NCBI RefSeq assembly: GCF_018977255.1
Contig: NW_024704742.1
Coordinates: forward strand, 123,878,001-123,942,000
From: Callorhinchus milii
Taxonomy: Eukaryota
DNA: 64,000 bases
Reading direction: 5' to 3'
Shown here: positions 14,407-60,920 of the stretch, in pieces
Layout of the letters: each line of letters opens with the position of its first letter
Position numbering within the stretch: position 1 is the stretch's first letter
Position numbers and translations under genes: made by a program
Notes under the pieces: model-generated
Database searches by the model: none
Told to the model about the DNA's origin: nothing
Seen by the model: the letters and a program-made list of their open reading frames with translations, nothing else

Positions 14407-15667
14407 AGAGAGAGAGAGAGAGAGATCCCAGAGAGAGAGAGAGAGAGATCCCAGAGAGAGAGAGAGAGAGATCCCAGAGAGAGAGAGAGAGAGATCCCAG
14501 AGAGAGAGAGAGAGATCCCAGAGAGAGAGAGAGATCCCAGAGAGAGAGAGAGATCCCAGAGAGAGAGAGAGATCCCAGAGAGAGAGAGAGATCCCAGAGG
14601 GAGAGAGATCCCAGAGAGAGAGAGAGATCCCAGAGAGAGAGAGAGAGATCCCAGAGAGAGAGAGAGATCCCAGAGAGAGAGAGAGAGATCCCAGAGAGAG
14701 AGAGAGATCCCAGAGAGAAAGATCCCAGAGAGAGAGAGATCCTAGAGAGAAAGATCCCAGAGAGAGAGAGAGAGAGAGAGATCCCAGAGAGAGAGAAAGA
14801 GAGATCCCAGAGAGAGAGATCCCAGAGAGAGAGAGAGATCCCAGAGAGAGAGAGAGATCCCAGAGAGAGAGAGAGATCCCAGAGAGAGAGAGAGATCCCA
14901 GAGAGAGAGAGAGATCCCAGAGAGAGAGAGAGAGATCACAGAGAGAGAGAGATCCCAGAGAGAGAGAGAGATCCCAGAGGGAGAGAGATCCCAGAGAGAG
15001 AGAGAGAGAGATCCCAGAGAGAGAGACAGATCCCAGAGAGAGAGAGAGATCCCAGAGAGAGAGATCCCAGAGAGAGAGAGAGAGATCCCAGAGAGAAAGA
15101 TCCCAGAGAGAGAGAGAGAGATCCCAGAGAGAGAGATCCCAGAGAGAGAGAGATCCCAGAGAGAGAGAGAGAGATCCCAGAGAGAGAGAGAGAGATCCCA
15201 GAGAGAGAGAGAGATCCCAGAGAGAGAGAGAGATCCCAGAGGGAGAGAGATCCCAGAGAGAGAGAGATCCCAGAGAGAGAGAGAGATCCCAGAGAGAGAG
15301 AGAGATCCCAGAGAGAGAGAGAGATCCCAGAGAGAGAGAGATCCCAGAGAGAGAGATCCCAGAGAGAGAGAGAGATCCCAGAGAGAGAGAGAGATCCCAG
15401 AGAGAGAGAGAGATCCCAGAGAGAGAGATCCCAGAGAGAGAGAGAGAGATCCCAGAGAGAAAGATCCCAGAGAGAGAGAGAGATCCCAGAGAGAGAGAGA
15501 GATCCCAGAGAGAGAGAGATCCCAGAGAGAGATCCCAGAGAGAGAGAGAGAGATCCCAGAGAGAAAGATTCCAGAGAGAGAGATCCCAGAGAGAGAGAAA
15601 GAGAGATCCCAGAGAGAGAGAGAGAGAGAGAGATAGATCCCAGAGAGAGAGAGAGATCCCAGAGAGA
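14407..15667. repeat. (GA)n tracts punctuated by GATCCCA, about 1.26 kb compound satellite
   Basis: Directly visible. Confidence 0.98.
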
Positions 15668-15764
15668 AGCAGATCCTTTCCCATCAATTGCAAGAGTAGC
15701 GTTTCTCTTAATCCGTTTTTAATGCAAAAGATCAACACGAGTTGAGCTTTTTTTTTGTAGGAGT

Positions 15765-15827
15765 ATGGAGTGGGACCTGGGAAGAAAAACTTTTTCTAAA
15801 GTCCAGACAGGGGAGGAGATGCAGTGG
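15765..15827 (+). CDS. CDC20B: CDC20B coding exon 1 (MEWDLGRKTFSKVQTGEEMQW)
   Basis: ATG at 15765; peptide aligns with the recalled human N-terminus MEWKLERTAPRRVRTEEEMLW; GTAAGT donor at 15828, phase 0. Confidence 0.92.
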
Positions 15828-16961: not shown

Positions 16962-17218
16962 TATATGATCCTAATGGCACTGAGATTGCTGCCTTGTAAT
17001 TTCTCCTTGTTTTTCACAATGTTCTACTTATTTCAAACCATGTAGTATTTATATTCATTAGTTTAGAGTTCAAAACATCACATTTGTGGAATGAATTTAT
17101 TTGTAAGTTTGAGTGTGCCAAAAATATACTGTTGTGAAGTGCAGTCTGGAGTTCAAGCTTAAAGCAGAAACATCACTATTACATTGAGTTCAAAGAAAAG
17201 AGAAGGAAGCATGTAGGG

Positions 17219-17296
17219 ATGTGGTGGTTAGGCAGTGTACTGCTAGCTGGCTGTTGTGTCTGACAGGTTAGCAGCTGCTAGCTACACTCCACACTG
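17219..17296 (+). ncRNA. MIR449: miR-449 hairpin 1 (miR-449c-like); 5p about 17229-17254 UAGGCAGUGUACUGCUAGCUGGCUGU
   Basis: GGCAGUG seed; close to human miR-449c UAGGCAGUGUAUUGCUAGCGGCUGU; complementary 3' arm gcagctgctagctacact at 17271; in CDC20B intron 2. Confidence 0.92.
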
Positions 17297-18132
17297 CTGC
17301 ATCTGAGAGCACTTCATCATCAGAGTCTTCACTGACTGCTGGAGCTTTATCTTCCAATACAATTCAATATATTAAAATTCTGAGACTTTCGGAACTATTT
17401 TGCTATGATTCAATGAAAAGATTTTCTTTAAATATCTTTTTGCCCATCGATCCTGCACTGGCTCTCAGTACAAGTTGTTCATTCAATCCCACTGCCCCGC
17501 CCAATCCCCATACCTCTTTAATTCTTTTAATGTGAAAGGCGCTTTACAAATGTAATTTGTTGTTGTTCTTTAGTCACTCACTCCTCTACCAGTGGAAATA
17601 ACTTCTCCCCATGTACCCTGTCAAAATCCTTTATAATTTTGTATTCTATCAGGTTCCTTCTTAACTTTGAAAACAGACCCAACTTCTCCAGTCTCTCCTC
17701 ATAACTGTTAACTCAATATCATTCATCCTGTATTATGAGCTGTTTGTTCCATGGACTAATACCCACCAATAACTGCATTGAGACTGTTCAACCTTATTGA
17801 TTTGTGCTGCTTTTATATCACAGTTCAGCTGTCATCCTGGCTTTAAATTGGGTGCTGAATTATAATAATAATCCTTGTATTTGATATAGTGCCTTATCAT
17901 GTCTTCGAGATGTTTCAAAGCATTTAACAGAATATACTGTAAAGTGTTGTGACTGTGTATTTTGTGGGCGAAATGCAGCAGTTTGTTACTTATTAAGGAA
18001 CAGATGACTATGAGTGAACAAACACAGGTCAGTTAAAAATGAGTAAAGTACTCTGTGTCAGTGACTTTTAGCTAAAGATTTCACTCATTCCTTTAATCTT
18101 ACAATAAGGCAGAACGTTCACAATGAAGTGCC

Positions 18133-18212
18133 AGAGTCTGGAAGGCAGTGTACAGTTAGCTGGCTGCTTGGTGTTTGGACAGCAGCCGCTACGTATTCCG
18201 CCACTTGCCTCG
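18133..18212 (+). ncRNA. MIR449: miR-449 hairpin 2 (miR-449b-like); 5p 18143-18164 AGGCAGUGUACAGUUAGCUGGC
   Basis: Two changes from human miR-449b-5p; 3' arm cagccgctacgtattccgccact resembles miR-449b-3p. Confidence 0.92.
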
Positions 18213-18268
18213 TGGTCTGTCACGTCAGATGATCCTGGTCGAGGATAGAGACTCGCGGGCAACGCTTT

Positions 18269-18352
18269 GTGCTTGGTGGGAAGGCAGTGTAACGTTAGCT
18301 GGTTGTGGTTGTATATGTTACCAGTTAACTTGCTGCTGCCCTCTTACCACAC
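18269..18352 (+). ncRNA. MIR449: miR-449 hairpin 3 (miR-449a-like); 5p 18282-18303 AGGCAGUGUAACGUUAGCUGGU
   Basis: Long stem with accagttaacttgctgctgccctcttacc; 139 nt after hairpin 2, similar to the tight b/a pair in mammals. Confidence 0.93.
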
Positions 18353-18719
18353 ATGGACATTCAGCCGTCATTCTCCAGAGACATCCTGATTTGAATGTTG
18401 AATGAGAGTTCTGCATTTTTAAATTTCAATCACTGGTCAGTATTTTCTTCAGTTTTAAAAAATAGAAAGGCCACCACAGTATATTAGTAAGAATGCTCAA
18501 ACAATAAGAAACACTAGTTTTTACAACAGTTCAAGGCAACTTTTTATATTATAAAAACTTTATTCACCATTTTCTGTATAAAGTCCTTGTGCCTTAAGCT
18601 CTACCTGTGACTGGCACTGAAGTGTATTCAGCTAAAGAGTAAATCCTATTAGGATTTGATACAATAACACTTCTGTAGGGGGCCTTATTGAGAATGGTGA
18701 ATGCAGGGTGATTGGGAGT

Positions 18720-18800
18720 GTGTGGGTTGATTAGGCAGTGTAATGTTAGCTGGCTGCAATGTAGGAATCAGCAGCTACAAGCACTACCACATTAGCTCAT
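18720..18800 (+). ncRNA. MIR449: miR-449 hairpin 4 (extra paralogue); 5p 18733-18754 AGGCAGUGUAAUGUUAGCUGGC
   Basis: Intact seed and mature-like sequence; partially complementary 3' arm cagcagctacaagcactacc. Confidence 0.85.
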
Positions 18801-21800
18801 GATTTCACAACAACATAAAGAAATAAATTATTTTATAGTCTTACCATATCAAAACTTCTCAAGGTGCCTTGATGGAATTACTATACTAATGATGCTTGCG
18901 TTTGATACCGCCCCTTTTACATTGGGATGATATATTCAAATGCTCCATGGGATTTATACTAATGAATGAATAATGACTGTGCATTTTGTAGGCAAAATGT
19001 GGCAGCCGATTTGCATCTAGCAGCCTTCTCCAAAAAGCCATGACGTGAATGACTGATTTTATCTGAGGGTACAACTCCTTTCTGTTTCTCATGACATGCA
19101 AGTCTTAATCAATCCACATTGACAGGCAAGGCCTTGGGTTTTGTGTCTTATTCGAAAGTCGCCACGTCCATCATTGCAGCGCACTCCCATAGCAGAAAGC
19201 GATCAACGTATTTAAGAGGAAACTTAATTCATATATGAGAGGAAGGGTTCAGAGGCTTATGGGTGAGAGGATTAGGAGAGGAGTTTCACGTTGAGTATAA
19301 ACATTGGCATAGACTATTTGAGCCAAATGGCTTGTTTCTGTGCTGTAAAGTTCTATGTAAGGAATTATGTGACATTGAGTATTGGTCCAAATTCTATTGA
19401 TGAGCCAGAGAGGCTGATCAATTATCAACAGTGCTCTCCCTCACTCAGGTATCAGCATGGAGTCCACCACAAGTTATTAAATCAGCTCTACTTTCTTTCT
19501 CAGGCTTGCCTCACAGCCAGTTAGACTTTAATTAGACTTTCAGAGAGTCCCTGCTTATAACCATCCCCACCAAGAAGGATAGACATTTTTAAAAATAAAA
19601 TATTTGACTCCTTAATGAAATGTCTGCTAACAGGTGGTTATGCTCATAAAGAAACCAACAGTAGTATCTACAGAAAATACTTACATTCCATTAGAACTAT
19701 TTATCTTAAACAGCAGTGTGTGTCGTCCTGTGACCAATTTTTGAACCCTCTCACAGAGGTTGGAATACATAATCCATGGAATTATGGAATACTATCATTA
19801 CTTTGAAGCTATTTCAAAGAGTGATCTGAAAGCAAAGTATTGAGTTAAAATGGCATTCCTTTCTGATGTTCCCTTTGAAACATTTTACTTTGGAGCCACT
19901 TCAGCTCAAAAAACACCCCTGCTTACACCTCCCCCCCCCAGCCCTCCCCCAGGAGAATAGTATAGCTCTTCAAAAAATTTGGAAATTGCAACAAGAAGAA
20001 CATTATCTTGCTGAAGATCATTATCATATGTACTATCGCTGTGGGTGGTGGAATGATGCACTTTGTGAAAATGACAAGGTTAAAGAGGATGAATTGCTAA
20101 ATATAGGCACAGACTTTAGATTTCATACCAACCACAGACTCAAATTATCTGCAAGAACACATCAAGCCTTCTACCCCAACCCCTCGCATTTTGCTTGAAA
20201 ATTCCCACTGAGTTACATTCATGGGTCTGAGCCATTACAGGACTCAGGGTGCCTCACCCCTTGTTTTGAAAGATGTAATTTGGAGGGTTTTAAAACATTG
20301 TGGGAGGCCCTGAGGTAAATGGACTGTACGCAAAAGTATAATTTCTTTTGCAATCGGTGGTCTCTACTGCAGCAATTCTGACTGCCCTGAATTAGAGTGA
20401 AGCCCTGGGGAAGAAATCTCAACACTTACACTACAGTCTTAACATTTCAGACTGTGCAAAATTTGGCAAATTCTTAACAGACTATGCAAAATTGAGCAAG
20501 TTCTCAAAACGGATTTCAAAGACCTGATGTAGTTTTTAAGAATTTATCAATTCTACAGGCCTTAAAATGCATTAAAGTAACGTCATCACAGGCCCGGGTG
20601 TAATTTCCTCCCTTGTGATATAAGGTTTATGACATTTGTTTGTACTGCAACAATTATTATGAAGTGTAATGCATTGCATCTCAACTGTGTGGAACACTTT
20701 CCCTCAATCCCTCTGCCTTGGCCCCTCCCTTCATCCCCAATTTCAAATCCTGCCTGAAGACCTTCCTTTTTGATCGTGCTTACGGTCACCTACCCCCTCA
20801 CCCTCCCCCTGGCTCAGTGTCAGACTCCGCCACTGTCAAGTGCTCTGAGACACTACCCTCCGTGAAAGGCACTATATAAATCCAAGTTGTTGTTGTTATT
20901 TACAACAACAACAACAACAAGATTCCATTTATAAAGCGCCTTTCACATCAGGAGGACGTCCCAAGGCGCTTATTTAAAATAATAGATAGAGGCTACATTA
21001 TTTATAGTTCAGAGGATACATTGCTCGGGATCTTAGGTGTGAGAACATGATCTGAACATTTTAAAATTGTGCAGAATTTTGGAAAATTCTTAAATCCAAT
21101 CCTAAAGCAGCAGTTTATCTGCAATTCTTAAAAATTACAATGGAATTTAATAATTTTCAAAAAACATGCATGATTTTAAAACAATCTTGAAGCTATAAGC
21201 ATGGCGATTTTGGGGCCTCTATGTGCTATAAAATCTGGTTCTATTGCAAACACAACTTCTATTTATTCAATAATTAGATTTAGGAATCCCCTTGTGTTGG
21301 GACAATTTTGACTTGTGTGGAGGGATTATAAACACAAGTAAAGATTAACTGGGCCAAATGGCCCGTTTCTATGCCTTACAATCAATCAAACATTGAAAAG
21401 ACTCCTCAGTCTTGAAATGTCTCTAGAGGGGACTTAATGGAGATGTATAAGATTTTGAATGGGATTGAGAAAGTTTTTGATAATAATTCTTGCATTTGAT
21501 ATAGTGCTTTATCACATCATTGATGTCTCAAAGCGCTTCACAGGATATACTGTAAAATGGATTGACTGTATTTTGTGAGCAAAATGGGTTTGAAGAAATA
21601 CTTTTGATGCATTAAGACCGCAGAACATGAAGCCAGTGTTAGGGTTGCAAAGGGCAATTTCACAGACAACAGGAAATATTTATTTAGCAAGAAGGCAATT
21701 GACAACTGTCATATATGCTAATACTGTAACAGGATGCTGGACTTATTTAAACAGCTTTGATGCTCTGATGTTGCTATGATACTTGGAATTGCACAGCCAC

Positions 21801-30662: not shown

Positions 30663-31727
30663 GTGACAGAAAAAAAGAAACATCTAATGTCTCATTTTAA
30701 AACTAACACAGCTGGAAACAGGGTGAAGTGGGAGCTGCCAAGCCCAGTTGCCTGTAGCAGCCCAGTGATTGCACAGTGGCAGCACTTACACAGGAGAGAA
30801 GTGAGAAGTGGGGCTGTTGGCCAAACTTCAGTAGTGGCAATAGTTGAGTCAGGACCACGGTCGAGGGTTGGCAGTGGAGCAGCGACAGTAACAGAGACAG
30901 GGGTTAGGGCTGGAGCAGGTACAGTAACCGAGACAGGGGTTAGGGCTGGAGCAGGGACAGTAACCGAGACGGGGGTTAGGGCTGGAGCAGGGACAGTAAC
31001 CGAGACGGGGGTTAGGGCTGGAGCAGGGACAGTAACAGGGACAGGGGTTAGGGCTGGAGCAGGGACAGTAACAGGGACAGGGGTTAGGGCTGGAGCAGGG
31101 ACAGTAACCGAGACGGGGGTTAGGGCTGGAGCAGGGACAGTAACAGGGACAGGGGTTAGGGCTGGAGCAGGGACAGTAACAGGGACAGGGGTTAGGGCTG
31201 GAGCAGGGACAGTAACAGGGACAGGGGTTAGGGCTGGAGCAGGGACAGAGGTGGGGCTTGGAATAGGGACATGGGTTAAAGATAAAGCAGTGACACAACC
31301 TTGGGCTGGAGCACAGACAGTAGCAGGAACTGAGAATACAGTGACAGAAATAGGGGCAGCAACAGCAACAAATTACATTTGTATAGCGCCTTTCACATCA
31401 GGAGCATGTCCCAAGGCGCTGACAGTAAGGACTGGGACTTTAACAGGTGCCGGGATAGTGACTGGAACTGGGGCAATGACAGGAGCCGAGGCTGGGACTG
31501 AGACACGGTTGGAAACTGAGACTGGTACAGGGGAAGTAATAGGAGGTGGACCTGAGACTGTAATAGTGACTGTAATAGAGCCAGGAACTGGGTTGTAACG
31601 GTGAGGGGGGCAGAGGCAAAAACAGGAATAGGGGCTCTGGGCACATATGGACGCTACACGCACAGAAATACAGCCTGTCAGGCAGCATGTCCAGCACATC
31701 ATGAACCAACATTACAGACTCCAGCAG
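30663..31727 (+). CDS. CDC20B: CDC20B coding exon 3, expanded; contains a 1-nt frame break near 31590
   Basis: tttgtag acceptor; SHFKTN...SPVACSSPVIAQWQ matches human SDFKSN...VPVASSPITTRWQ; 3' end EPTLQTPA-G matches human EQLKTPSK-G; strong CAG|gtatga donor at 31728 whose phase 1 (in the downstream frame) fits exon 4. Confidence 0.7.
30885..31244 (+). repeat. Coding minisatellite, 10 x 36 bp, encoding TVT(E/G)TGVRAGAG
   Basis: Unit acagtaac(c/a)g(a/g)gac(a/g)ggggttagggctggagcaggg in frame with CDC20B exon 3. Confidence 0.97.
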
Positions 31728-36466: not shown

Positions 36467-36589
36467 GGCACAAGAGCAATCTGGGTGATCTTTCTCTTCA
36501 CAATTCAATTGATAACAAGGCAGACAAACGACACGTACCTTCAGTCCCAATGAAAATCTTGGATGCTCCAGGTCTGAAGGATGATTACT
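36467..36589 (+). CDS. CDC20B: CDC20B coding exon 6 (...KRHVPSVPMKILDAPGLKDDY)
   Basis: tttcag acceptor, T|gtaagt donor; ILDAPxLxDDYY is the start of the Cdc20/Fizzy WD40 domain. Confidence 0.93.
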
Positions 36590-37285
36590 GTAAGTATTGC
36601 TATCCATTACTATCCCCACCAAAATTCCTCTAGTTTACATTTTAGACTTTGAACATAATCATCAAGAAATTTTTTAAAAAAAATTCTTCCCTACTTATCC
36701 AAAAGTACTAACTTGGGCTGGGATGCAATTCTAATGGCTTCAGTTCTCCCCATTACCGCATCCAAGTGTCAACTCTTTATATGTGACCCTAAAATGTAAG
36801 GTCTTTATACACTTGTCCCAATTATAAACCATGGATTGCTTTTATTGCAATCCGTTTATGATGGACCCCAGTGAGTGCCAGCATGCTATTTAGCTATAGG
36901 CCATCAAGGGTGAGCCTGATCTTGTGCCTAACCATTGTATATAGATTTTAAAGCAATGGGAGCAAGAATTCTTATTGCTTCTTCATCTCCGGAGTTAGAA
37001 TTGTGATACCAGCTGCAATGTTACTACTCCTGTTCCAGCTGAAATTGTCTAACCTAAGATTATACCTTTCTTGTCTATGTGGATCAGTTGTGTTAACAAC
37101 TATGCCAATTTGAAAATTGATTTTGATGAATTAACTCTTGTTGATCTTCACAAATAAAAATTCATCCTCAGATAAATCAGTAATTGACATGATCAGGATT
37201 TGCTGAGAAAAACTTCTAAGTAACATCCTATGAAATCAAGATGACCAACTCATCTTTTGATACCATTATTCATTGTATTTTCTAG

Positions 37286-37473
37286 ATCTCAATTTGATTG
37301 ACTGGAACACCACAAATCTTATAGCCATTGCTCTTTCCAATGTTGTGTATGTTTGGCTCCCAGAGTCTGAAGCATTTGAGGCCATAAAAGTGGAATCTGA
37401 CTATGTCTCATCAGTAGCCTGGATTAAAGATAGAAACAACCTTGCACTTGGAACTAGTGCTGGTGACGTGCAG
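37286..37473 (+). CDS. CDC20B: CDC20B coding exon 7 (YLNLIDWNTTNLIAIAL...LGTSAGDVQ)
   Basis: WD40 Cdc20-family sequence; tctag acceptor, CAG|gtaaca donor. Confidence 0.96.
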
Positions 37474-37997
37474 GTAACAGAATGGTGGTCAGTGTATTCT
37501 CACTTCAATTTGGTTGACTGGAAAGATTTCAGATAATAATTTCTGAATGTCAAACCACATAAGCACTTGCAATGAATTGTAAGTACGTAAAATTAGATAG
37601 AACAATACCTTGTGGGTGTTTTTACACCACATGAGCCTCCACCTCTCCTAATCGCCTTTCCCATATCTCTCAATTCTGTTCTCCTTCAACCATGCAGTAA
37701 ATAAAAGTAAGTAAATAAGCAAGTAAAGAAAGGGAATAATTTATCCACTAGCCTATTAATAAAAATAATAATAATCCTTGCATTTGATATAGTGCATCAT
37801 CATGTCTTCGAGACATCTCAAAGCGCTTCACAAAATATACTGTAAATAATTGTGGGTGAAACGCGCAGCCAATTGTGCATAGCAGTGTTCCACAAACAGT
37901 CCACAATCCACAAGTAGTGGATTAAGTGACCAAATTATTATTATTATTTTTTGAAAGGGATTATTACTCCAGGAAAAATGATCCGCCAATCGACTAA

Positions 37998-39107
37998 GCC
38001 ATACTCTGGCTCTCGTCAACATCGAAAATCTCATGGCTCTCACCTCCTCCACCTACTCGACCTCCCCCTAAAACTCTCCGAACCCGTACGCAACCTAGGT
38101 GTCAGGTTCGACCCCCAATTATTCTTCCTTCCCCGCATCCGGTCCCTCACCAGCACCGCCTCCTACCACCTCTGACGCATCGCCTGTCTCCGCCAATACC
38201 TCTAGCCAAAAGCCGCTGAAACCCTGGTCCGTGCCTTTGTCACCTCTCGGCTGGACTACTCCAATGCCTTCCTCACCGGTCTCCCATCCACTACCATCCA
38301 TAAAATCCAAATCATTAAAAACTCTGCCGCCCACATTCTCACCCACACCAAACTCCGCTCCCCGATCACCCCAGTCCTTGCCAGACTGCACTGGCTGCCT
38401 GTCCCAGAGCGGATGGATTTCAAGATCCTCACCCTTGTATTTAAGTCCCTGCACTCCTCTGCGCCCCCCTACCTCTCTGCCCTCCTCTCTCCTCAAAACA
38501 GTACCCGTTGCCTCCGTTCCTCTGGGTCTGGCCTCCTCCTCGTCCCTGGAGTCCTCCGCTCCACCCTCGGCGGCTGTGCCTTCAGCCACTATAATAATAA
38601 TAATAATCCTTGCATTTGATATTGCGCTTTCCACGTCGGGAGGACGTCCCAAAGCGCTTCACAGAACACACTGTAAAGTGAATTGACTGTATATTTGTGG
38701 GCGAATGCACAGCAATGTCCCACAAACAGTCGTAGTTTGGAAATGACCAATTTATTATTCTTTTTGGTTTTGGAGGGATTATTATTAGGCTCTATGTGGA
38801 GTAAGGAAACTTGCCCAAGGTTTCGCCCTGCCTGGAATTGAACTCAGCTTGCAAAGCGAGTGCTCTAACCACTGAGCTACAGGACTCCACTATGCCCCGA
38901 GGCTGGGGAAACTGTCTTCCTCACTCCCTTCGTTTCGCTTCCTCCCTTCCCATTTTAAGGTCTCTGCTGAAGACCTTTCTTTTTGACTATGCCTTTGGTC
39001 ACATTCCTCTCCCTCCCCCTGGCTCGGCCCCGGGATCCGTTACTGTAAAGCGCTCTGAGATGCCGTCCGGCGTGGAGGGCGCTATATTAATCCAAGTTGT
39101 TGTTGTT
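37998..39107 (+). mobile_element. 5'-truncated L2-type LINE (ORF2 C-terminus plus (GTT)n tail)
   Basis: VRNLGVRFD and LHWLP-type ORF2 remnants with stops; GACTAA flanking duplication. Confidence 0.88.
38593..38888 (-). mobile_element. Young SINE nested in an L2 fragment
   Basis: Same family; CCACTAT duplication at 38586 and 38887. Confidence 0.9.
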
Positions 39108-39732
39108 GACTAAAAAACAGGTTCCTACTTACCGCTAGGTCAACAGAGGCGTGTGGAGTAAGGAAACTTGCCCAACGTTTCGCCTTGCTGGGAATCGCAC
39201 CCAAGTCTCTTGCTTGAGAGGCGAGTGCTCTAACCACATGACTTCAATGCAGGCTCTTAGCTCCCCAAATATTATGCATAATAATTGAATAACACTAAAT
39301 TATTTAAATTATTAAAATAATACCAGTGCCCTCTTTTCCCAGATCAGCCCCAGCTCGCCAGCCTGTAATTGTCAAACATTTTGAAATGTATTCCCGTCGT
39401 GAAAGTCTCTTCTATAAATGTAAATTGTATTATATTATCTCTGAAGAGATCTATCACAAAAGACATGAAGAAAAGCTTGAAAAATTAAGATTTATTTTCA
39501 CTAGAGCTAAGATGTTTAAGTTTAAGGGATGACCTGAAAGAAGTATTCAAGATTATGATTAGGATAAATAATAAATTATTCCACCGGGCTGTGTACCAGT
39601 AACAAGGGCACAAAACGTAAGATAATCACAGAAAAGGGATGTTGAAATAAATCTTGACACAGAGGAAACATTCTGTACCTTGAATGGAAAAGGTGACTTT
39701 GCCACAACTGAAAATAATTGTTTTTCTCTTAG

Positions 39733-39827
39733 TTGTGGGATGTTGAGACTAAGAAAAGGATACGAAACATGCAGGGTCATAGTTCAATGGTTGGATCACT
39801 GAGCTGGAATGATTACATTCTTAGCAG
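39733..39827 (+). CDS. CDC20B: CDC20B coding exon 8 ([31 protein letters not shown])
   Basis: Matches human [26 protein letters not shown]; canonical splice sites, phase 0 to 2. Confidence 0.96.
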
Positions 39828-40561
39828 GTATGGCCATTTGCCAAAGCACTTTAACATCACAGTGAATCTGCAGCAACATGCTGATAAATTGCAGTGTGAT
39901 ATGAAAATAAAAAATATTATAATCATATTAAGCACAGTGATAGTCAGACAATGCCAGAAATATGAAGCATTGTGGTATTTTTGAACCAAGCCAAAATTTG
40001 CAGCTTTATAGTGGACATGATCTGTGTTATCATCACATCGTCTTTATTTGAAACAAAAAGCTAACACCTATCTAATCTTCGAAATGCAGCGAGTTTCCTA
40101 TTCTTACTGATACCATCAATTTTGCTCAAGCAAATGACATATTTGTACTTCAATATGTATGCTGCAAAATGCAGTGACATGAAAAGTAACATGCACAATT
40201 TTGTGCTGGAGACTATGTCAAGTCAACATTTGCCTGGAGCCTTTGAATCCTAGTGGTATCTGGCCCATGATTTTTTGTGTGAGTATACATGTGTGTCAGA
40301 CCAGTTGGAACAGAAGGCAAGTAGGAAACTGCTTTGGAGCTTTTCTAAAAGGAGGCTGCAGATTTCACTGTGATCTAATGTTACAAAAATCAATTTGCAA
40401 ACATTTTATTTTACAGATTGATACCTGGGGCATCATATGATTTCAAAAGTGAATTTTTTCTATGGATATAGTCTTATGCGATGTCATGCCCCGATTTAGA
40501 ATCTTAGCATGTCAGGATCTTATTTCTTTCTTTATTTATTAATCTGCTTTATGTTCTTCAG

Positions 40562-40793
40562 TGGTTCAAAATTTGGCTCCATTCACCACCATGATGTACG
40601 GATAGCACAGCACCATGTTGGAACACTCTGTGGGCACACCTCTCAAGTCTGTAGTCTGAAATGGTCACCGAATGGCAGGTTCCTTGCAAGTGGAGGCAAT
40701 GATGGGTTGCTGAACATCTGGCCCAATGCTCCAGGAGCTGGTGTTAGGACTGTACCACACAGGACCATTGACAATCGCCAGTCAGCAGTGAAG
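40562..40793 (+). CDS. CDC20B: CDC20B coding exon 9 ([23 protein letters not shown]...QSAVK)
   Basis: [14 protein letters not shown] and IWPNAPGA are CDC20B-type; canonical splice sites, phase 2 to 0. Confidence 0.96.
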
Positions 40794-40854
40794 GTGATAG
40801 ACAAATTTCATATTTCTACTGTCGCATGTTTTAAGGAAGTATTTTGTGGTAAGT

Positions 40855-41173
40855 AATAATAATAATAATAATCCTTGCATTTGATATAGCGCTTTTCATA
40901 TCGGGAGGACGTCCCAAAGCGCTTCACAGAACACACTGTAAAGTGAATTGACTGTATATTTGTGGGCGAACGCGGCAGCCAATTGCGCACAACAATGTCC
41001 CACAAACAGTCGTAGATTGAAAATGACCAATATATTATTGTTTTTGGTTTTGGAGGGACTATTATTAGGCGTGTGGAGTAAGGAAACTTGCCCAAGGTTT
41101 CGCCCTGCCTGGGATTGAACTCAGGTCTCTCGCTTGCAAAGCGAGTGCTCTAACCACTGAGCTACAGGACTCC
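40855..41173 (-). mobile_element. Young full-length tRNA-derived SINE in CDC20B intron 9
   Basis: Reverse complement of the 54173 copy. Confidence 0.93.
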
Positions 41174-41296
41174 ACAAGTTATACTCAACATTTTGCTTTT
41201 AATTCTTTTAAAAGTTGATGAAAAGCCCAATAAGTGTGATGAAGAAAACAAAGTGAATATTGTCATTTAACAGTGTTTCAATTTCCATTTCAATAG

Positions 41297-41422
41297 GCCA
41301 TAAACTGGTGCCCCTGGCAGCCAGGAATTCTAGCTGTCGGGGGAGGAATGAAAGATGGACATTTACGGATTTGGGACACAAAGACAGGGAGCTGTGTGAA
41401 TGATGTAGACACAAAGTCACAA
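41297..41422 (+). CDS. CDC20B: CDC20B coding exon 10 (AINWCPWQPGILAVGGGMKDGHLRIWD...DTKSQ)
   Basis: GGGMKDG is the CDC20B form (CDC20 has GGGTSDR); AG/GT boundaries, 126 nt. Confidence 0.96.
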
Positions 41423-41459
41423 GTAAGATGTTCTTCAAGCTCTTTGAGGCATCCTCCTG

Positions 41460-41710
41460 ACATGAAAGTGAAATTAGGAGGCAGTTTTTCACCCAAAGGA
41501 TATTGGGAATCTGGAACTCTCACCGTCAAAATGTTATGGATGCTGGATTCATTCACAATTTCAAGACTGAGGTGGATAGATATTTGTTAGGTCAGGGTAT
41601 CAAGGGATATAGGGCAAGGATGGGTAATTGCAGTTGAGGTACAGATCAGCCATGATCTTATAGAATGGCAGAACAGACTTGATGGGCTAAATGGCCTACT
41701 TTCTATGTTT
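41460..41710 (+). mobile_element. CR1-type LINE 3' end
   Basis: TTCAAGACTGAGGTGGATAGAT...GATCAGCCATGATCTT...GGGCTAAATGGCCTACT, typical of shark CR1 tails; a further degraded CR1 piece at about 34210-34990. Confidence 0.7.
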
Positions 41711-43556
41711 CTAAGGTGCTATATAAATGTAAACTACATTGTAATATGACCTTGAAATTAATAGGCAGAGAAAAACAAATATGAAATAAGAAAGTGCTAG
41801 AGAAGCACAAATTTGACAGTAGATTCTGACAATACATTTATACTGTTGTACAATGAATCGTTTTGCCAGTTCTGGATCAGGCAAGACCAAACACTGAGTT
41901 AGATATCTCATTGTCTCTGCTCACAGGAGAACTAATTTGATGGTGAAGAGTCCGACCGAGCAGATCCCAATAGTGTTCCATGCTTGAACGCATGTCTTGA
42001 TGTCATCCTGCAAGTAGCATAATGACATCAAGTCATTTGCTCGCCTACAGGGGCTTTTTGGAAGCTCAATGGCAGCAAAATCACAATGAAAGCTGGGAGA
42101 AAGTTGTCTGATGTTTAGAAGCATGTCCCAGCTTTCACTGCCATTGTTTTGTTCCAGCGGATATAATCCATCCAAAAACTGACTGTTTATATGTAGATGT
42201 CTTAATGTCTTTGCAGTACTTAAGCAATCAATTCAAGTCAGTTAGTACATTTTGAACACCATTTGACACAGATGGTCTTGAAGGGTCTGCAAAAATGCCA
42301 GCTCCGGTTTATGAGCCTGCTTTCACGACTCCAGAGACCCTGAGAATTTGAATATAAAAGCTGTGTGAGAGGATCAGCATTAGGCAACCAACAAAGCTGC
42401 TATAATAATCCTTGTATTTGATGTAGTGCCTTTCACATCAGGAGGAGGTCTCATACAATGACTGTAAAGTATAGTACTGTAAATAATTTAGTCACTTCAA
42501 TCCAGATTGTTTGTGGGACACTGCTGTGCGCAATTGGCTGCTGTGTTTCACCCACAAATATACAGTCAATTTATTTTACAGTATATTCTGTGAAGCGCTT
42601 TGAGACGTCTAGAAGATGTGAAAAGTGCTATATCAAATGCAACGATTATTTGTCATAGTGTTTGTGTATTTCGTCAAAAATGGCAGCCAGCTTGCTCATA
42701 GCAATGTCTCACAAGCAAACAACTTAACAGCAACAACAACAAATTACATTTGTTTAGCGCCTCTCACATTGGGAGGATGTCCCAAGGTGTCGGACAGTCG
42801 AGTATCCACTCCCTAGCTGGTGGTTGGGATCAGAAGGGGTGGAGGGCAGGGAGGATCGGGGTAGGAAGGTGACCGAAGACTCAGTTGAAGAGGAGGGTCT
42901 CGAGACGGGCCTTGAGACGGGCCTTGAAACAGGCAAAGATGGGGGCAAGGCGAAGGGACTGTGGGATGGAATTCCAAGGCATAGAGGTAGAAAAGCTGAT
43001 GGTGGGGGATATTGGAGCAGGTCAGAGCCCGCTGGGCGGAAGGAGTGGACAGCTTGGTATAGAGTTAGCAGGTCACAGAGTTAGAGAGGAGCTAGGGCGT
43101 GGAAGGCTTTGAAAGCAAGAGCAAGGGTTTTGAACTTTATCTGCAGATAACAGCAAACTACCCAGTGACTTCCTGTAAAGATGGTTAAATACACAAGTAT
43201 GTGTGTAACTCTGTGGGGTGATGAAGTTGACCATATGTGTGAGAAACCGTACTGAAATTTCCCTCTGTACAATTTGTTCTACTGCTGTGTGTGTGTAGAT
43301 ATATATACATAAGTTGGTATGTCTAAAACCACTTAAAAGCTGAACCAAACTTATTTATTTATAGAGAGTTCTGGTTCCACTTTTTTAGTTCAGCTGTACC
43401 ACAACAAAAATAAATGCCTTTGATACTGTAATACATTGTCACCAGACATGATCAAAGAAAACCTTCACAGTGACAAGGCAGTTTTTCAGCTTTTAAGAAT
43501 AGTTTTTGAAAGAAAACCCTGCATGATACTGACAGTAATTCTCTTGTACTTTGTAG

Positions 43557-43674
43557 ATTTGTTCACTGATCTGGTTACCAAAGTATAAGGAGTTAGTTAC
43601 TGGCCACGGATTTCCCAGTAACCAAGTTTCTGTCTGGACTTATCCATCCCTTAGCAAGTCAACTGAGCTCAAAG
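43557..43674 (+). CDS. CDC20B: CDC20B coding exon 11 (ICSLIWLPKYKELVTGHGFPSNQVSVWTYPSLSKSTELK-G)
   Basis: Matches human ICSLIWLPKTKEIATGQG; ttgtag acceptor, AAAG|gtactg donor. Confidence 0.95.
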
Positions 43675-46600
43675 GTACTGTTTGGATCCTCTCTTTGACT
43701 GTAAGAAGATGTGAACACATTAAGGAATATGGTTCTTCCCAGACAGATTTTTTAAAATGTTTTTTTCAGCAAAATGCAAGAGAAGAATTTTTTTTGACAA
43801 AAGTCTTTTTTACTACATTACAAATTATGTTTCCTTTACCCTGCACCATAAATAAGCGTTGAGGCAATGTGTATAGTGTTGGAGAAGCTGGTATCAGAAG
43901 CAGTTTAATTTGGATTTCTTCGATATAAGTGCAGCGGGTAGAAAATTAATTTGTGCATATGCCTCTGTGATACTCTAAAACTCGCATCCAGGAGTTGATC
44001 ATGCCACCATCTATTTAATAATGTTATAAAAACAAACACCTAATTTCGGAGTTTTGTGCACATGCACCTCTGAAACCTTGTGTTAATTTGTAACAGCCCC
44101 CAATGCTTGGTGTATTGGTCGTGCTTCCTGCTCCACATTGGTCTACTGCTGGAAGTGCATTCGCTTTTGCTTGCAGCAGCACGAATAAAAAAAGTGTTAA
44201 TGTTAAAATGCTGCTGATTTGTACAAGACTGTATGTGACAACGAACGGCATTGATAGTTGACGAGAAAGCAGAGCAATAGCAGGTTGGAGGTTAATGAAG
44301 ATCTGCAAATGTATGAGCGGTGACAGAAAGCGAGAAGGTTGCCCACCATGTAGATGTGTGGTACAGTGGCCTGCAAGTCCTTTGTACGTTTGACGCAGAC
44401 AGCAGACTACCGATGGTACAATTGAGCCACATTTTTCATTTTGTTTGTTACTTCACATTCGTGTGAGCTGAAGAAGATCAATGCTGAGGAACGCCTTGGG
44501 ACGTCCTCCTGACGTGAAAGGCGCTTTATAAATGGAATCTTGTTGTTGTTGTTGTTGAACGGAATACTGGGGTATTATAATTATCATCACTAATATGGTT
44601 AAGCCTGTATCTTTGTGAAGCAGCACTGAATGATACACTCTGCACTTACAAACAGTGTTCTGCCTTCAACATAAGGTGGTTCTCAATTTTGTTTAGCCAA
44701 TGACTATTTGTTTTTTAGGGATTATTATCCCCGGAAAAGCGATCCGTCAATCAACGACAACAGGGTTCCTATTTATTGCTACGTAAACAGTGGCGTGTGG
44801 AATGAGGAAACTTGCCCAACATTTCGCCCAAACTCCAATATAAACAAGGTCCAAATGTTCAAAATCCAATCCTCATCCTTACGAGGCTCCACACTCTCAT
44901 CACCCCAGTGCCTGCCAGGTCCCCTTGCTCCCTGTTGCAGAATGAAATTTCAAGATCTTCACTCTCACTTTGAAATTTCTTCCCATTTGGCACCTTCCTA
45001 TCTCTCTGATTTGCTCACACACCACTCCACTACCTGCTGGCTTCTCTCAGCTGGCACTGGTCCCCTCCGCTCCTTACTTGATGGCCATGCTTTCAATCAC
45101 TGTGCCCCAAATCTCTGGAACTCTTTCCCTCAAACCCTCCGTCTTGTCCCCTCTTTGCCCATCTTCAAATCACACCTGAAGACTTTCCTTTTTGACTGTG
45201 CCTTCAGTCACCTTCCCATCCCTTTCTAACTCGGTGTCAAGCCATTCTTAAATGCTCCAAGGCACTATCTGTTTGAAGGATCCTTTATAGTGCAAGTTGT
45301 TGTTGTTATGCCCTAAGTTATGGTACTCCCTGTCTCTAGAGGGCTTATTCACTAGTCTGAATTTGCTGCAATTGAAGCTGATTAATAAATTTGTATTCAT
45401 TGTGAATAAACTCACAAATGTCTTATCATGGCCTGAAATTTGCCATTAGCTGCATTTGAATTTGAAGAAGAGCAAAGTTTTGATCCAAGGGCTTGGATAA
45501 GTATCATTTATTTTGATACAGATCAGTTCTATTAAAAGAAAGAACATTTGGAGGTTTTAACGATCTAACATTGCTCATTGTGATAACATTGTGGGTTTTC
45601 ACAGTTGCTTTGGTCTGTTGGTTGCAATTGCATCCATAAGGTGCTGCTAAACCAATGTAGCAATTTAATAACCTCAGATATCTCCAGAGTCTAGATAGTA
45701 TTTGAGAAAATAACACTCAAAGAGTAAGTAAAGTCACAAGATCACACAAAAGATTAGATTGAAAAAGATCTTTATCAAATGTAAGAATTATTATTATATC
45801 CATCCAAAATACCCACTATACCATTCTATTCTTTTTAAATGAGTCCAGCGTCCTAGCCGCTAGTGACCTGGTAACCTGCTCCAGTGGTTAATTACCCTCT
45901 GGGTAAAGAAACATTGTCTGGTGTCCATCCTAAATTGCCCTTTGCAATACTAAACCTGTGGCTTCTTGTTCTGCTGCCTCTGGGTTTATTTTCTCAACAA
46001 CAACTTGCATATATATAGCACCCTTCACGCCAGATGGCGTCTCAGAGAGCTCAGAGTGCTTCTCAATTTCTTTTAAAATCTTACAACTCTGTCTTAGGTC
46101 CCATCTGAGACATCTCTGTTCAAGACTGAAGAACCCGAGCTTGTCGAATCACTGCTCATAACTTATCCACTAACACTGGGAATTGTCCTTGTTGTTTTCC
46201 GCTGCGCTGCCTCTCGGGTCCAGGTAGCCCCTTTATCTCACAATGTCTAGATCTCTACACAGTACTCCAATTCATTTCATGTAATTTTTAATTTTATGGT
46301 CAGTTAAATTCACAGCGCTTTTCTGGGTTACTTTCCTAACAGATGTTGGGAAACTTCATGATATTCATCCAATCCACCATTATCATTACTCAACCTTAGC
46401 CTGCTTTCCTCCACACAATTTCTATTGCAGGATGAGAGGTCAGGTTACCAAGTCATTTATAATAGTAATAATCCTTGCATTTGATATAGTGTCTTATCAC
46501 GTCTGCGAGACATCTCAAAGTGCTTCACAGAATATACTGTAAAGTGAATTGACTGTATATTTTATGAGTGAATTGCAGCACCAATTGCACATAGCAGTGT

Positions 46601-47809
46601 CCCCACAAGCAGTCGTGGATTGAGTGAGCAAATTATTATCATTATTTTTTATTGTTGGAGGGATTATTATTCCCAGAAAAGCTTACTACTGGGTAAACAT
46701 AGGCTTGTGGAGTAAAGAAACTTGTCTAAGGTTTCGCCCTGCCCAGCAATCGAACCCAGGTCCTCTCGCTCTCGAGGCGAGTGCTTTAACCACTACGCTA
46801 CAGGACTCCAAGAGACACAGTTTTTCTTGTCCTGGCATAATCACTCTTGGCACTTTGGTGCAAAGTCTTATGCAGGCCTACTGGTGTGACTCAGCCTATC
46901 TCACTTCAGCCTGGCAAGAGTTTCCTTCTCAGCTCACACAGTCACTGATGCTAATATGAAACAGGTGTCAGCATGACTCAGTGAGTAGCACACTTGCCTC
47001 TGACTCAGTAAGCCCCACGTCAGTCTAAGGTGACTATGCACAGTGCTGGGGGAGTGCTACAGTGTTAAAGGTGTCATTTTCAGATTAAATGTTAAACCCT
47101 GGTCCCATCGACCAATTCAAGTGAACATTAAACATTCTATGGTTTTATTTTTAAAAAAGTGAATTTCTCCTCGTGTCCTGGCCAACATTATCCCAGATAC
47201 AATTGGTCACTCACTTCCTGGCTGTGCACAAATCGGTGGCTGACTTTACCTACAAAATACACAGTCATTATACTTTACAGTAGATTCTGTGAAGGGCTGT
47301 GAGGGAAAGACGCTATATCAAATGCAAGGATTATTTTTTCATCTGCATTTTGTCTATCACAGTCTCTGACCTTCAACTGCAATTTCTCCCTTCAAACACA
47401 CCAGTAACAGCAAAGAGGTATGAGAAGTGGAAAAAGCTGTGGTGAGATACTGCACTGCCTGCGCAGTTAGAAGTTGTGAGTCAATTGGTCCCTTAACAGT
47501 CACAGTTATACAAAAACTCATTTACATCTGCATCACAGGTTGATTTTTTTTGTTTGTTATGAATAAATGATTAAATCTTAAATAAAAGAAATTGTTTAAT
47601 TGTGGTGAATGAACTTTAATGGCCACTTATTCTTTGAACAATTCTGCACAGTAACAAGTCGATACAGTACGATTTCACTTCATGATTTAAGCTGATGCGT
47701 AAAATTAACTTACAGACAGAAAGTGCTATTCAAGGTATCAGTGCATGATATTCTCTGTTCACATTCTGAATGAAACTGGGCCTCAGGTAGAATCTCTGAC
47801 CATTTGCAG

Positions 47810-47961
47810 GTCACACAGGGAGGGTGCTGCACCTGGCTCACAGTCCTGATGGTCGTACATTGGTTTCATTGGCTGCTGATGAAACAGTCTGTTTCTGGAG
47901 TTGTGATGCTGCGGATGAACAGAAAACCAAGGGCTCTGCTTTGACAACACATACCCTGTGA
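47810..47961 (+). CDS. CDC20B: CDC20B last coding exon (GHTGRVLHLAHSPDGRTLVSLAADETVCFWSC...TTHTL*)
   Basis: tttgcag acceptor, phase 1; final WD repeat; TGA at 47959-47961. Confidence 0.95.
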
Positions 47962-48117: not shown

Positions 48118-49130
48118 TACAACAACAACTTGCACTTATATATGGCTCTGCGCTGGGTGGTGGATTGGGGAGTGAGGAGGTTGGAGAGGTAGGTGCCAGG
48201 GAGTGAATGGATTTGAACACGAGTGTGAGGATATTGAAGTTGATTGTTCGGTGATGGGGAGCCAGTGGAGCCTGACCAGAACTAGTGAGATGTGGGTACG
48301 GAGTTTGGTCCGGGTCAGTATGTAGGCAGCAGAGTTCTGATTGAGCTGGGTCTTGTGAATGGTGGAGCTGGGGAGATCAGCGAGGAGTGCGTTGGAGTAA
48401 TCCAGGTGGGAGGTGACAAATGCACGCACGAGGGTTTCGGCTACATTTGGGGTAAGGTACGATTGGAGGCGGGCAATGTAGCGGAGGTGGAAGAGGGCGG
48501 TCCTGGTCAACGACCGGATGTGGGGGAGGAAGGACAGCTGGGCGTCGAACCGGACACCTAGGTTGTGCACTGGTGCAGTGAGTGTGAGGGAGAGCCCAGG
48601 GAGGTTGAGGAGGTTAGATCCGCAGGAGTGAAGACATTGATGGGAGCCACAGTATGGCTTCTGCCTTGTCCACATTCAGCTGCAGGAAGTTGGCACTCAT
48701 CCGGGCCCTGATGTCTACCAGGCAAGCTGATAGAACATCGGTGGACCTGGAGTTGGTACTGGAGGAGGCAAAGTAGATTTGTGTGTCATCCGCATACATG
48801 TTGAAGTTTATCCCATGTCTGCGGATGACATTGCCCAGAGGGAGCATATAGATAAGGAAAAGAAGAGGCCCAAGGATGGAGCCCTGGTGTACCCCGCAGG
48901 TGACCAGGCAGGGGTGGGAGGAGAAACCATTTGCTGTGATAAAATGGAGGTGGTTGGTTAAGTAGGACTCGAACCATGCGAGTGCGGTCCCATTAAAGTA
49001 GATGAGGGAGCTGATGGAGGAGGATGGTGTAGTCGACTGTGTCAAATGCGGCAGAGAGATCCAGGAGGATGAGGAGGCAGAGGGAGCCCTGGTTATAGAT
49101 AGAGAGGACGTTGTTTGTGACTTTGACAAT
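48118..49130 (-). mobile_element. L2-type LINE reverse transcriptase remnant just downstream of the CDC20B stop
   Basis: GVHQGSILGPLLFLIYMLPLG and YADDTQIY RT motifs, frameshifted. Confidence 0.92.
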
Positions 49131-60254: not shown

Positions 60255-60369
60255 CTAAGTTGGAAACAAACAAGAAAAATACACATATTGTACTTTAGTT
60301 TATTAAGGAGATGATCTCTGTGTGCAGAATGACAAACAAGCCAATGCTTTATTTATAAATCTAACTTAC

Positions 60370-60532
60370 AGATTGCAGTGTGCTGCCGTCAGGACCCAGT
60401 TGCGATCGATCAAAGTTCCTCCACATTGATGGGCATAAGCTTTTTTCCGATTGTTGAAAATCTGAATGGATGCCATGTAACATCTTGAATGAGGTTTAAC
60501 ATCATTGCCACCAATTATCTCCACACCGTGAT
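60370..60532 (-). CDS. GZMA: Granzyme A-like exon 2 ([22 protein letters not shown]...WVLTAAHCN)
   Basis: IIGG mature N-terminus, PHSRxYMA granzyme motif, catalytic His in TAAHC. Confidence 0.93.
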
Positions 60533-60611
60533 CTGTAATATGAATGTAGAAGTTATTGAAAGGTCGGTTCACAAGCTCTAAGGGTTTTTGAAAGCAAGAA
60601 ATTAACACTGT

Positions 60612-60920
60612 GGAGTCCTGTAGCTCGGTGGTTAAGCACTCGCCTTGCAAGCAAGAGACCCAGGTTCGATTCCCGGCAGGGCAAAACCTTGGGCAAGTTT
60701 CCTTATTCCACACGCCTGATATTAATCCCACAAGAAAGAAAACAGTAATAAATTGATCACTTCAATGCACAACTGTTTGTGAGACACTGCTGTGTGCAAT
60801 TGGCTGCTCAGTTTCAGCCACAAATGTAGTCAATTCACTTTACAGTATATTTTGTGAAGTGTTTTGAGACGTCTAGAAGGCGTGAAAAATGCTATATCAA
60901 GTGCAAGGATTATTATTATT
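60612..60920 (+). mobile_element. tRNA-derived SINE in granzyme intron 1
   Basis: Same family, more diverged; ACACTGT on both flanks. Confidence 0.88.

What the first reader, a model, noticed from the sequence alone, without database searches (positions are those of the whole stretch)
36520..47961. This CDC20B appears to retain CDC20-type degron-receptor residues but lacks the APC/C-docking motifs
Seen in sequence: KRHVPSVPMKILDAPGLKDDYY, SGGNDG, SQIC, GRVL and AADET, plus an 18-residue tail ending TTHTL. From recall, CDC20 uses the Asp of LDAP and the Glu of AADET for the D-box Arg, and DYY, the Asn of GGND, Q401 and R445 for the KEN box. Human CDC20B has IHITG, SGCSDG and AADGT and stops at WNCY. 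No DR[YF]IP C-box and no C-terminal IR are present here. Inference: an evolutionary intermediate that could still bind D-box/KEN proteins without recruiting APC/C, acting as a degron-binding decoy or adaptor in the multiciliation cell-cycle variant.
Basis: partly seen in the sequence, partly recalled or inferred. Interest (0 to 1): 0.72.

Follow-up and report, generated by a model that had tools for sequence, protein, structure and literature searches.

The report
Shark CDC20B keeps ancestral D-box groove
This is the elephant shark's copy of CDC20B, a known helper of cells that grow many cilia; unlike the bony-vertebrate versions it has kept one of the two 'destroy-me' tag-binding surfaces of its ancestor CDC20, which dates the steps by which the protein changed jobs.

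Summary
The motifs are real, and the gene is Callorhinchus milii CDC20B (synteny with miR-449 and GPX8; tree). It has no C-box, KILR motif or IR tail. That is already published for mammalian CDC20B and holds for all 94 CDC20B models examined.

The degron claim splits in two. The D-box groove (D177, A178, P179, Y207, D464, E465, T466 in human CDC20 numbering) is invariant in 10 of 10 complete chondrichthyan models, whereas D177 is His in 66 of 66 tetrapods. I found this lineage split in none of my searches. The KEN site is not intact: N331G and T377M/V occur in every chondrichthyan.

A fold with a cyclin-B D-box gave weak support (0.47 against 0.02), possibly from memory of solved complexes.

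An N-terminal S-S/T-P motif matching the Polo-box docking consensus is present in 88 of 88 CDC20B models that have the region and in 0 of 15 CDC20.

Best reading: a non-APC/C, PLK1-docking WD40 scaffold that keeps an ancestral D-box site in cartilaginous fish. A two-degron decoy is unlikely.

The parts
15765..15827 (+). CDC20B coding exon 1 (ATG; MEW... start as in other CDC20B)
   Evidence: GT donor, in frame; matches the N-termini of P0014 and P0015
16292..16363 (+). CDC20B exon 2
   Evidence: AG/GT borders, phase 0; matches Mobula P0014
17216..18803 (+). Three miR-449 hairpins in intron 2 (17216-17305, 18268-18355, 18719-18803): the CDC20B hallmark
   Evidence: Rfam RF00711, E 3e-13 to 1.6e-8; only the first passes the gathering score; intron-2 location stated in PMC6220262
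26904..27323 (-). Open frame holding an exon of a nested GPX8-like gene in intron 2 (synteny marker)
   Evidence: Pfam GSHPx E 3e-29; best PDB match GPX8
30663..31727 (+). CDC20B exon 3: conserved SSP motif, then a Gly/Thr/Ala tandem repeat (10 GVRAGAG units). One-base frame break near 31592 in this assembly; internal donor at 31524
30744..30779 (+). PVACSSPVIAQW: CDC20B-specific S-S-P, candidate PLK1 Polo-box docking site (inferred)
   Evidence: S-[ST]-P in 88 of 88 CDC20B models with the region, 0 of 15 CDC20; consensus quoted in PMC8719716
32659..32807 (+). CDC20B exon 4
   Evidence: identical to P0001
33747..33840 (+). CDC20B exon 5; carries the position of CDC20's KILR motif, here QDVN (degenerate)
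36467..36589 (+). Exon 6: CRY-box remnant (R166 kept), D-box groove K174/L176/D177/A178/P179, D184/Y185
37286..37473 (+). Exon 7: Y186, groove lining V200I and Y207
39733..39827 (+). Exon 8 (WD40; Y279/I280 kept)
40562..40793 (+). Exon 9: GGNDG (N329 kept, N331 changed to G)
41297..41422 (+). Exon 10: GGGMKDG (T377 changed to M, R380 to G), Q401
43557..43674 (+). Exon 11: GHGFP (F420)
47810..47961 (+). Last coding exon: R445, D464/E465/T466, L467V, 18-residue tail ending TL, stop; no IR
   Evidence: (P0267)

Best explanation
The gene encodes chondrichthyan CDC20B, a CDC20 paralogue that cannot dock on or activate APC/C. It most likely works as mammalian and Xenopus CDC20B do: a WD40 scaffold at deuterosomes that brings in PLK1 for centriole release. 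Shown here: orthology, an intact seven-bladed CDC20-type propeller, and loss of C-box, KILR and IR. Also shown: a two-step history. On the CDC20B stem the APC/C motifs went, the KEN face was remodelled (N331G, T377M, R380G, S444G) and an N-terminal SSP motif appeared. Later, in bony vertebrates, the D-box groove was lost (A178 to I/L/V, P179 to T/S, D177 mostly to H, E465 to G in amniotes). Inferred: PLK1 docks through its Polo-box domain on the phosphorylated SSP motif. Also inferred: in cartilaginous fish the retained groove is a weak secondary site for RxxL-type motifs (about even odds), used to tether partners rather than to destroy or sequester them.
For: Synteny: miR-449 cluster in intron 2, nested GPX8; the MCIDAS-CCNO-CDC20B block is reported in C. 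milii (PMC8470418, passages). Tree: 33 CDC20B rows are split from 14 CDC20 rows at 100/100; the window protein groups with elasmobranchs at 95/89. C-box and terminal IR/LR/MR: 0 of 94 CDC20B against 14 and 15 of 15 CDC20. The same genome has a canonical CDC20 with all three motifs. D177, P179, Y207, D464, E465 and T466 are each 10/10 in chondrichthyans; D177 is 0/66 in tetrapods and 2/10 in ray-finned fish. Among 30 CDC20-invariant sites relaxed in bony vertebrates, chondrichthyans keep 4 of 4 literature D-box contacts and 7 of 26 others (Fisher p=0.012). AlphaFold2 model: pLDDT 89.8; best match human Cdc20 9I68, rmsd 1.4 A. Complex with the C. milii cyclin-B D-box exon: weak support, 0.47 against best control 0.02, runs agreeing in at least 59% of contacts, partner pLDDT at least 44. 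That mark was reached by 51 of 78 solved and 2 of 108 mismatched pairs, but at 0.60 or under by only 5 of 78 solved pairs and by all 4 mismatches that passed. SSP motif: 88 of 88 against 0 of 15. CDC20B binds PLK1 and not APC/C (PMC6220262, passages).
Against: No binding or expression data exist here for any chondrichthyan CDC20B. The groove lining has drifted: R174 to K (9 of 10), V200I, D203S, L467V, and a 3-residue deletion near I216. The D-box co-receptor Apc10 is unavailable off the APC/C (PMC5717348, section 5 part 1). Chondrichthyan CDC20B is closer to CDC20 everywhere (92 of 115 invariant sites kept, against 62-78). 33 of 109 CDC20-variable columns are also invariant in these 10 sequences, so invariance alone is weak. 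The Fisher test is post hoc, small, and uses neighbouring sites. The complex score may come from memory of solved Cdc20/D-box structures, gave no interface, and had no mammalian CDC20B control. The SSP-Polo-box link rests on motif match only. A low-quality second Mustelus copy (P0028), left out of the counts, has E465G.
Confidence: 0.55

Rival explanations
1. Relic or structural retention. The LDAP and AADET residues persist because cartilaginous-fish proteins change slowly and these loops close the propeller (blade 1/7 seam). The groove binds no degron, and the protein is functionally the same as mammalian CDC20B.
For: Higher overall likeness to CDC20 (0.56-0.59 against 0.45-0.51) and 92 of 115 invariant sites kept. 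Short chondrichthyan branches. Groove lining altered. Seven non-D-box relaxed sites are also kept.
Against: D-box contacts are kept more often than other relaxed sites (4/4 against 7/26, p=0.012; wider groove 5/7 against 6/23, p=0.043). Bony vertebrates fold the domain without them, so they are not required for structure. Weak complex pass.
Confidence: 0.3
2. First reader's decoy. CDC20B binds both D-box and KEN proteins (securin, cyclin B, BubR1) and shields them from APC/C-CDC20/FZR1, acting as a dominant-negative timer in multiciliated cells.
For: D-box groove and N329 kept. Transient APC/C inhibition matters in multiciliated cells through Emi2 (PMC10938574, search listing and two passages only). 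Weak complex pass.
Against: N331 and T377 are changed in 10 of 10 chondrichthyans; KEN contacts show no enrichment (1/3, p=0.76). Vertebrate CDC20B promotes Separase-dependent release, and Separase rescues its loss (PMC6220262), which is the opposite of shielding securin.
Confidence: 0.1
3. Non-canonical APC/C coactivator. An alternative last exon or cryptic motif restores docking; one UniRef model (P0268) ends in ...IVR.
For: P0268 tail; a GT donor lies within the last codon and an AG at 48222-48223.
Against: That acceptor has 8 of 24 pyrimidines against 12-20 of 24 at the 11 real acceptors. It lies in a reverse-transcriptase-like repeat frame (judged by eye). No elasmobranch model ends in R, and C-box and KILR are still missing.
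Confidence: 0.03
4. Decaying pseudogene, given the frame break in exon 3.
For: Long exon 3 hits a stop at residue 357 in this assembly; no RNA evidence was obtained.
Against: An older model (P0271) reads through the break, one base different, and RefSeq P0001 uses an in-frame donor. The WD40 region is 75% identical to elasmobranchs. 4 of 4 listed coding differences in public runs are synonymous (19 further differences were not displayed).
Confidence: 0.02

Closest known systems
CDC20B of mammals and Xenopus (Revinski et al. 2018, PMC6220262)
   Same: Orthologue: same locus with miR-449 and GPX8, same N-terminal MEW.. and SSP..W blocks, no C-box/KILR/IR, same N331G, T377M, R380G and S444G changes.
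   Different: Keeps D177/A178/P179/E465, N329, R166, F420 and an 18-residue tail; species-specific repeat expansion in exon 3.
CDC20/Fizzy APC/C coactivator (human PDB 9I68, 4GGD; the genome's own copy on G000:C5)
   Same: PF24807 propeller (394 bits), 57-59% identity in the domain, acidic D-box contacts D177/E465, and the Asn-binding part of the KEN site.
   Different: No C-box, KILR or IR tail; KEN contacts N331 and T377 changed; groove lining drifted.
FZR1/CDH1
   Same: Same fold and degron sites (PDB 4UI9/8TAR 41-42% identity); KEN and D-box contact list taken from its model.
   Different: More distant, and an APC/C activator. Not included in my tree.
Arabidopsis CDC20.3-5 (PMC3110789, passages)
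   Same: Diverged CDC20 duplicates; CDC20.3 and CDC20.4 show no or very weak two-hybrid binding to the APC/C subunit CDC27b.
   Different: They keep the C-box and an IR/LR tail and are young retrogenes, so they are not a precedent for a motif-less, long-conserved paralogue.

Membership tests
CDC20B orthologues | miR-449 cluster in intron 2 | tested here: met
   3 hairpins at 17216-18803
CDC20B orthologues | Groups with named CDC20B, apart from CDC20 | tested here: met
   100/100 branch, 47 rows, midpoint root, no FZR1
CDC20B orthologues | Neighbouring MCIDAS and CCNO | tested here: inconclusive
   Not recognised by eye in ORF lists of the 20 kb upstream; reported for C. milii in PMC8470418
CDC20B orthologues | Deuterosome localisation and PLK1 binding | not testable with these tools
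   Known only for mouse, human and Xenopus
APC/C coactivators (CDC20/FZR1) | CDC20/Fizzy WD40 propeller | tested here: met
   PF24807 E 4e-118; model and fold search
APC/C coactivators (CDC20/FZR1) | C-box DR[FY]IPxR | tested here: not met
   Absent in the 757-aa model and in 94 of 94 CDC20B
APC/C coactivators (CDC20/FZR1) | C-terminal IR tail | tested here: not met
   Ends TL; 0 of 94 end in IR/LR/MR. One doubtful model, not among the 94, ends VR
APC/C coactivators (CDC20/FZR1) | KILR motif | tested here: not met
   QDVN at the aligned place
APC/C coactivators (CDC20/FZR1) | D-box receptor residues | tested here: met
   6 of 7 literature contacts identical, R174 to K (contact list)
APC/C coactivators (CDC20/FZR1) | KEN receptor residues | tested here: not met
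   6 of 8 kept; N331G and T377M
APC/C coactivators (CDC20/FZR1) | Actual D-box binding | tested here: inconclusive
   Weak support, 0.47 against 0.02; like complexes are solved

The most novel reading that the evidence does not exclude
Cartilaginous-fish CDC20B is a working APC/C-independent D-box reader: a PLK1-carrying scaffold that captures D-box proteins (cyclin B, securin or PLK1 itself) at the deuterosome. All CDC20B keep a remodelled top face for an unknown KEN-variant motif and recruit PLK1 through the SSP motif. Sharks would then preserve the missing step between an APC/C activator and the modern centriole-release adaptor.
Probability: 0.25. Interest if true: 0.68.

Novelty: new variant of a known kind. 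Interest (0 to 1): 0.4.

Why it matters
How CDC20B links PLK1 to Separase without APC/C is left open in the founding paper. The comparison gives three cheap, residue-level tests: the invariant SSP motif as PLK1 dock, the invariant but remodelled top face as an unknown partner site, and the D-box groove as a site kept only in cartilaginous fish. It also orders the steps by which a cell-cycle activator was repurposed for multiciliation. The gene itself and its lack of APC/C motifs are known, so the surprise is moderate.

Tried and rejected
1. Idea that the stop TGA is a recent CGA-to-TGA change hiding an LR tail: rejected. Five of 14 elasmobranch models also end in TL and none ends in R; the stop is present in runs X2 and X6.
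2. A loose three-frame scan of 12001-37000 hit only a simple AG-rich repeat upstream of the ATG (that call's gene model had two wrong borders and was redone).
3. Internal RxxL pseudo-degron in the N-terminus: none in the window protein, none shared among 7 sequences.
4. Expression: no RNA holder listed. Runs guessed to be RNA gave no listed splice joint. No conclusion drawn.
5. Position of the one-base gaps in contigs over exon 3 was not displayed, so the frame break is not settled by reads.
6. Securin family search in the own genome found nothing, and the control rang nowhere. An exact cyclin-B pattern found nothing; one mismatch gave two loci, one confirmed as a B-type cyclin by eye.
7. The primary Cdc20-KEN structure paper and the apcin paper (both recalled) were not held. 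KEN contacts therefore come from a Cdh1 simulation paper, transferred by alignment.
8. The supplementary figure of PMC6220262 with its CDC20/CDC20B alignment could not be seen (only a peer-review file was held). It may already mark some of these residues.
9. Earlier findings of this scan: none shown.
10. MCIDAS and CCNO were not recognised in 20 kb upstream.
11. Not tested: cyclostome CDC20B, human CDC20B itself, FZR1 in the tree, dN/dS.
Full report
Identity. The exon at 40563-40793 is 100% identical to P0001, named Callorhinchus milii 'cell division cycle protein 20 homolog, partial'. The window lies on G000:C1. The gene has 12 coding exons from 15765 to 47961 with canonical borders. Intron 2 holds three miR-449 hairpins and a GPX8-like exon on the other strand. 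The miR-449 host arrangement is the one given for CDC20B in PMC6220262 (passages), and PMC8470418 reports the locus in C. milii (passages). In a 47-row tree of the WD40 region, 33 CDC20B rows are separated from 14 CDC20 rows by a 100/100 branch of length 0.43. The window protein joins the elasmobranch sequences (95/89), and bony vertebrates form a 100/99 group (midpoint root, no FZR1). The genome's canonical CDC20, with C-box, KILR and IR, is on C5.

Observation. Every quoted motif is present at the stated place. Numbering against human CDC20 was read from the PDB alignment. The full 757-residue model has no C-box, KILR or IR. The stop is covered by independent contigs, and the four listed coding differences are synonymous (19 more differences were not displayed). 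Exon 3 has a one-base frame break near 31592 in this assembly. An older model reads through it (P0271) and RefSeq uses an internal donor, so an assembly slip or polymorphism is likely; this is not settled.

Data set. I hand-picked 94 CDC20B and 15 CDC20 proteins from the hits (1 holocephalan, 14 elasmobranch, 11 ray-finned, 2 lobe-finned fish, 25 amphibian, 20 sauropsid, 21 mammal). Many partial bird models and the low-quality Mustelus duplicate P0028 (which has E465G) were left out. For the counts, eight models with missing or mispredicted exons were dropped (P0003, P0008, P0009, P0011, P0016, P0078, P0128, P0333).

APC/C docking. A C-box or terminal IR/LR/MR is found in 0 of 94 CDC20B, including 47 with a full MEW-type start, against 14 and 15 of 15 CDC20. 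PMC6220262 already states that CDC20B lacks the canonical APC/C-binding domains and does not co-purify with APC/C. This half of the finding is known; the new point is only that the loss predates the split of cartilaginous and bony fish.

D-box groove. Contacts were taken from PMC12401543 (passage), PMC3690534 (section 5 part 1) and PMC9926468 (passage). D177, P179, Y207, D464, E465 and T466 are each kept in 10 of 10 chondrichthyans; R174 is mostly K. D177 is kept in 2 of 10 ray-finned fish and 0 of 66 tetrapods (all His). E465 is kept in 1/10, 12/25, 0/20 and 0/21 of ray-finned fish, amphibians, sauropsids and mammals. A178 becomes I, L or V in nearly all bony vertebrates, which I infer narrows the groove. 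The loss was stepwise: coelacanth keeps D177 and N329, and sturgeon and bowfin keep D177. Against slow evolution as the sole cause: of 30 CDC20-invariant sites relaxed in bony vertebrates, chondrichthyans keep 4 of 4 D-box contacts and 7 of 26 others (p=0.012; wider groove p=0.043). For slow evolution: they keep more of everything (92 of 115 against 62-78), 33 of 109 variable columns are also invariant, the test is post hoc, and the lining has drifted (V200I, D203S, L467V, a deletion near I216).

KEN site. N331 is G in every CDC20B, and T377 is never T (mostly M). D184, Y185, Y186, G376, Q401 and R445 are kept in 20-21 of 21 mammals. Only N329 separates chondrichthyans (10/10) from mammals (0/21). 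The top face is nonetheless nearly invariant across CDC20B (D184 aside, 5/10 in ray-finned fish), with new fixed residues (G331, G380, G444). I infer a remodelled binding site for an unknown motif.

Models. AlphaFold2 gives a confident propeller (pLDDT 89.8, pTM 0.86) closest to human Cdc20 bound to a D-box peptide (9I68, rmsd 1.4 A, 57%). Co-folding with the genome's own cyclin-B D-box exon (L007) gave weak support. The score was 0.47 against a best control of 0.02, contacts agreed at least 59%, partner pLDDT was at least 44, and no interface was shown. The mark was reached by 51 of 78 solved and 2 of 108 mismatched pairs, but at 0.60 or under by 5 of 78 solved pairs and all 4 passing mismatches. 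Like complexes are solved, so this may be memory, and no mammalian control was possible.

An S-[ST]-P motif near the N-terminus (30744-30779 here) is present in 88 of 94 CDC20B; the other six models lack the region. It is absent from 15 of 15 CDC20. It matches the Polo-box consensus S-[pT/pS]-[P/X] quoted in PMC8719716 (passage), and CDC20B binds PLK1. 'Polo-box' does not occur in the main text of PMC6220262. A search for CDC20B + PLK1 + polo-box gave two papers: the passages of PMC8719716 do not assign the site, and PMC9014216 was seen only as a listing. The docking role is inference.

Mechanism and verdict. Most likely a PLK1-docking, non-APC/C WD40 scaffold for centriole release, with an ancestral D-box groove that may still tether RxxL partners weakly in cartilaginous fish (0.55). 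A non-binding relic is the main rival (0.3). The two-degron decoy is unlikely (0.1), because the KEN site is altered and CDC20B promotes rather than blocks Separase action. Searches for prior description showed no paper on degron-receptor residues in CDC20B. The library lacks most subscription papers, and the key supplementary alignment was not visible. New variant of a known kind; interest 0.4.

Noticed in passing
G000:C930:689-9718 (L003, L006), minus strand: A third CDC20-like gene in this genome with a C-box (DRFIP) and LDAP but GGDD instead of GGND; its 3' end runs off the contig, so the tail is unseen. Possibly an extra coactivator paralogue.
   Followed up: partly
window 30880-31250: Tandem 30-nt coding repeat (10 GVRAGAG units) expands exon 3 relative to the elasmobranch models compared.
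   Followed up: partly
window ~31592: One-base frame break in exon 3 relative to older model P0271; run X2 also differs at 31596. Likely an assembly slip or polymorphism.
   Followed up: partly
window 47953-47958 and elasmobranch models: A C-terminal TL is shared by the chimaera and 5 of 14 elasmobranch models, suggesting an old, possibly constrained tail end that replaced IR.
   Followed up: partly
window 36529-36531: R166 of the CRY box is kept in 10 of 10 chondrichthyan CDC20B and lost in bony vertebrates, in step with the D-box groove.
   Followed up: no
window 18144: A fourth miR-449/34-type seed match between the hairpins that Rfam does not call; possibly a decayed fourth copy.
   Followed up: partly
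window 14407-15668: About 1.3 kb AG-rich simple repeat just upstream of the CDC20B ATG.
   Followed up: no
window 60369-60761, minus strand: Trypsin-family exon with an IIGG start, granzyme-like by eye; fits the recalled granzyme neighbours of CDC20B.
   Followed up: partly
window 6815, 39180, 41100, 46735, 52483, 54175, 60614: tRNA-like Rfam hits inside high-copy interspersed repeats, probably tRNA-derived SINE heads rather than genes.
   Followed up: no
P0012 and P0028 (Mustelus asterias): Two CDC20B-like models on a contig of the same length, one low quality with E465G: possibly a decaying duplicate.
   Followed up: no
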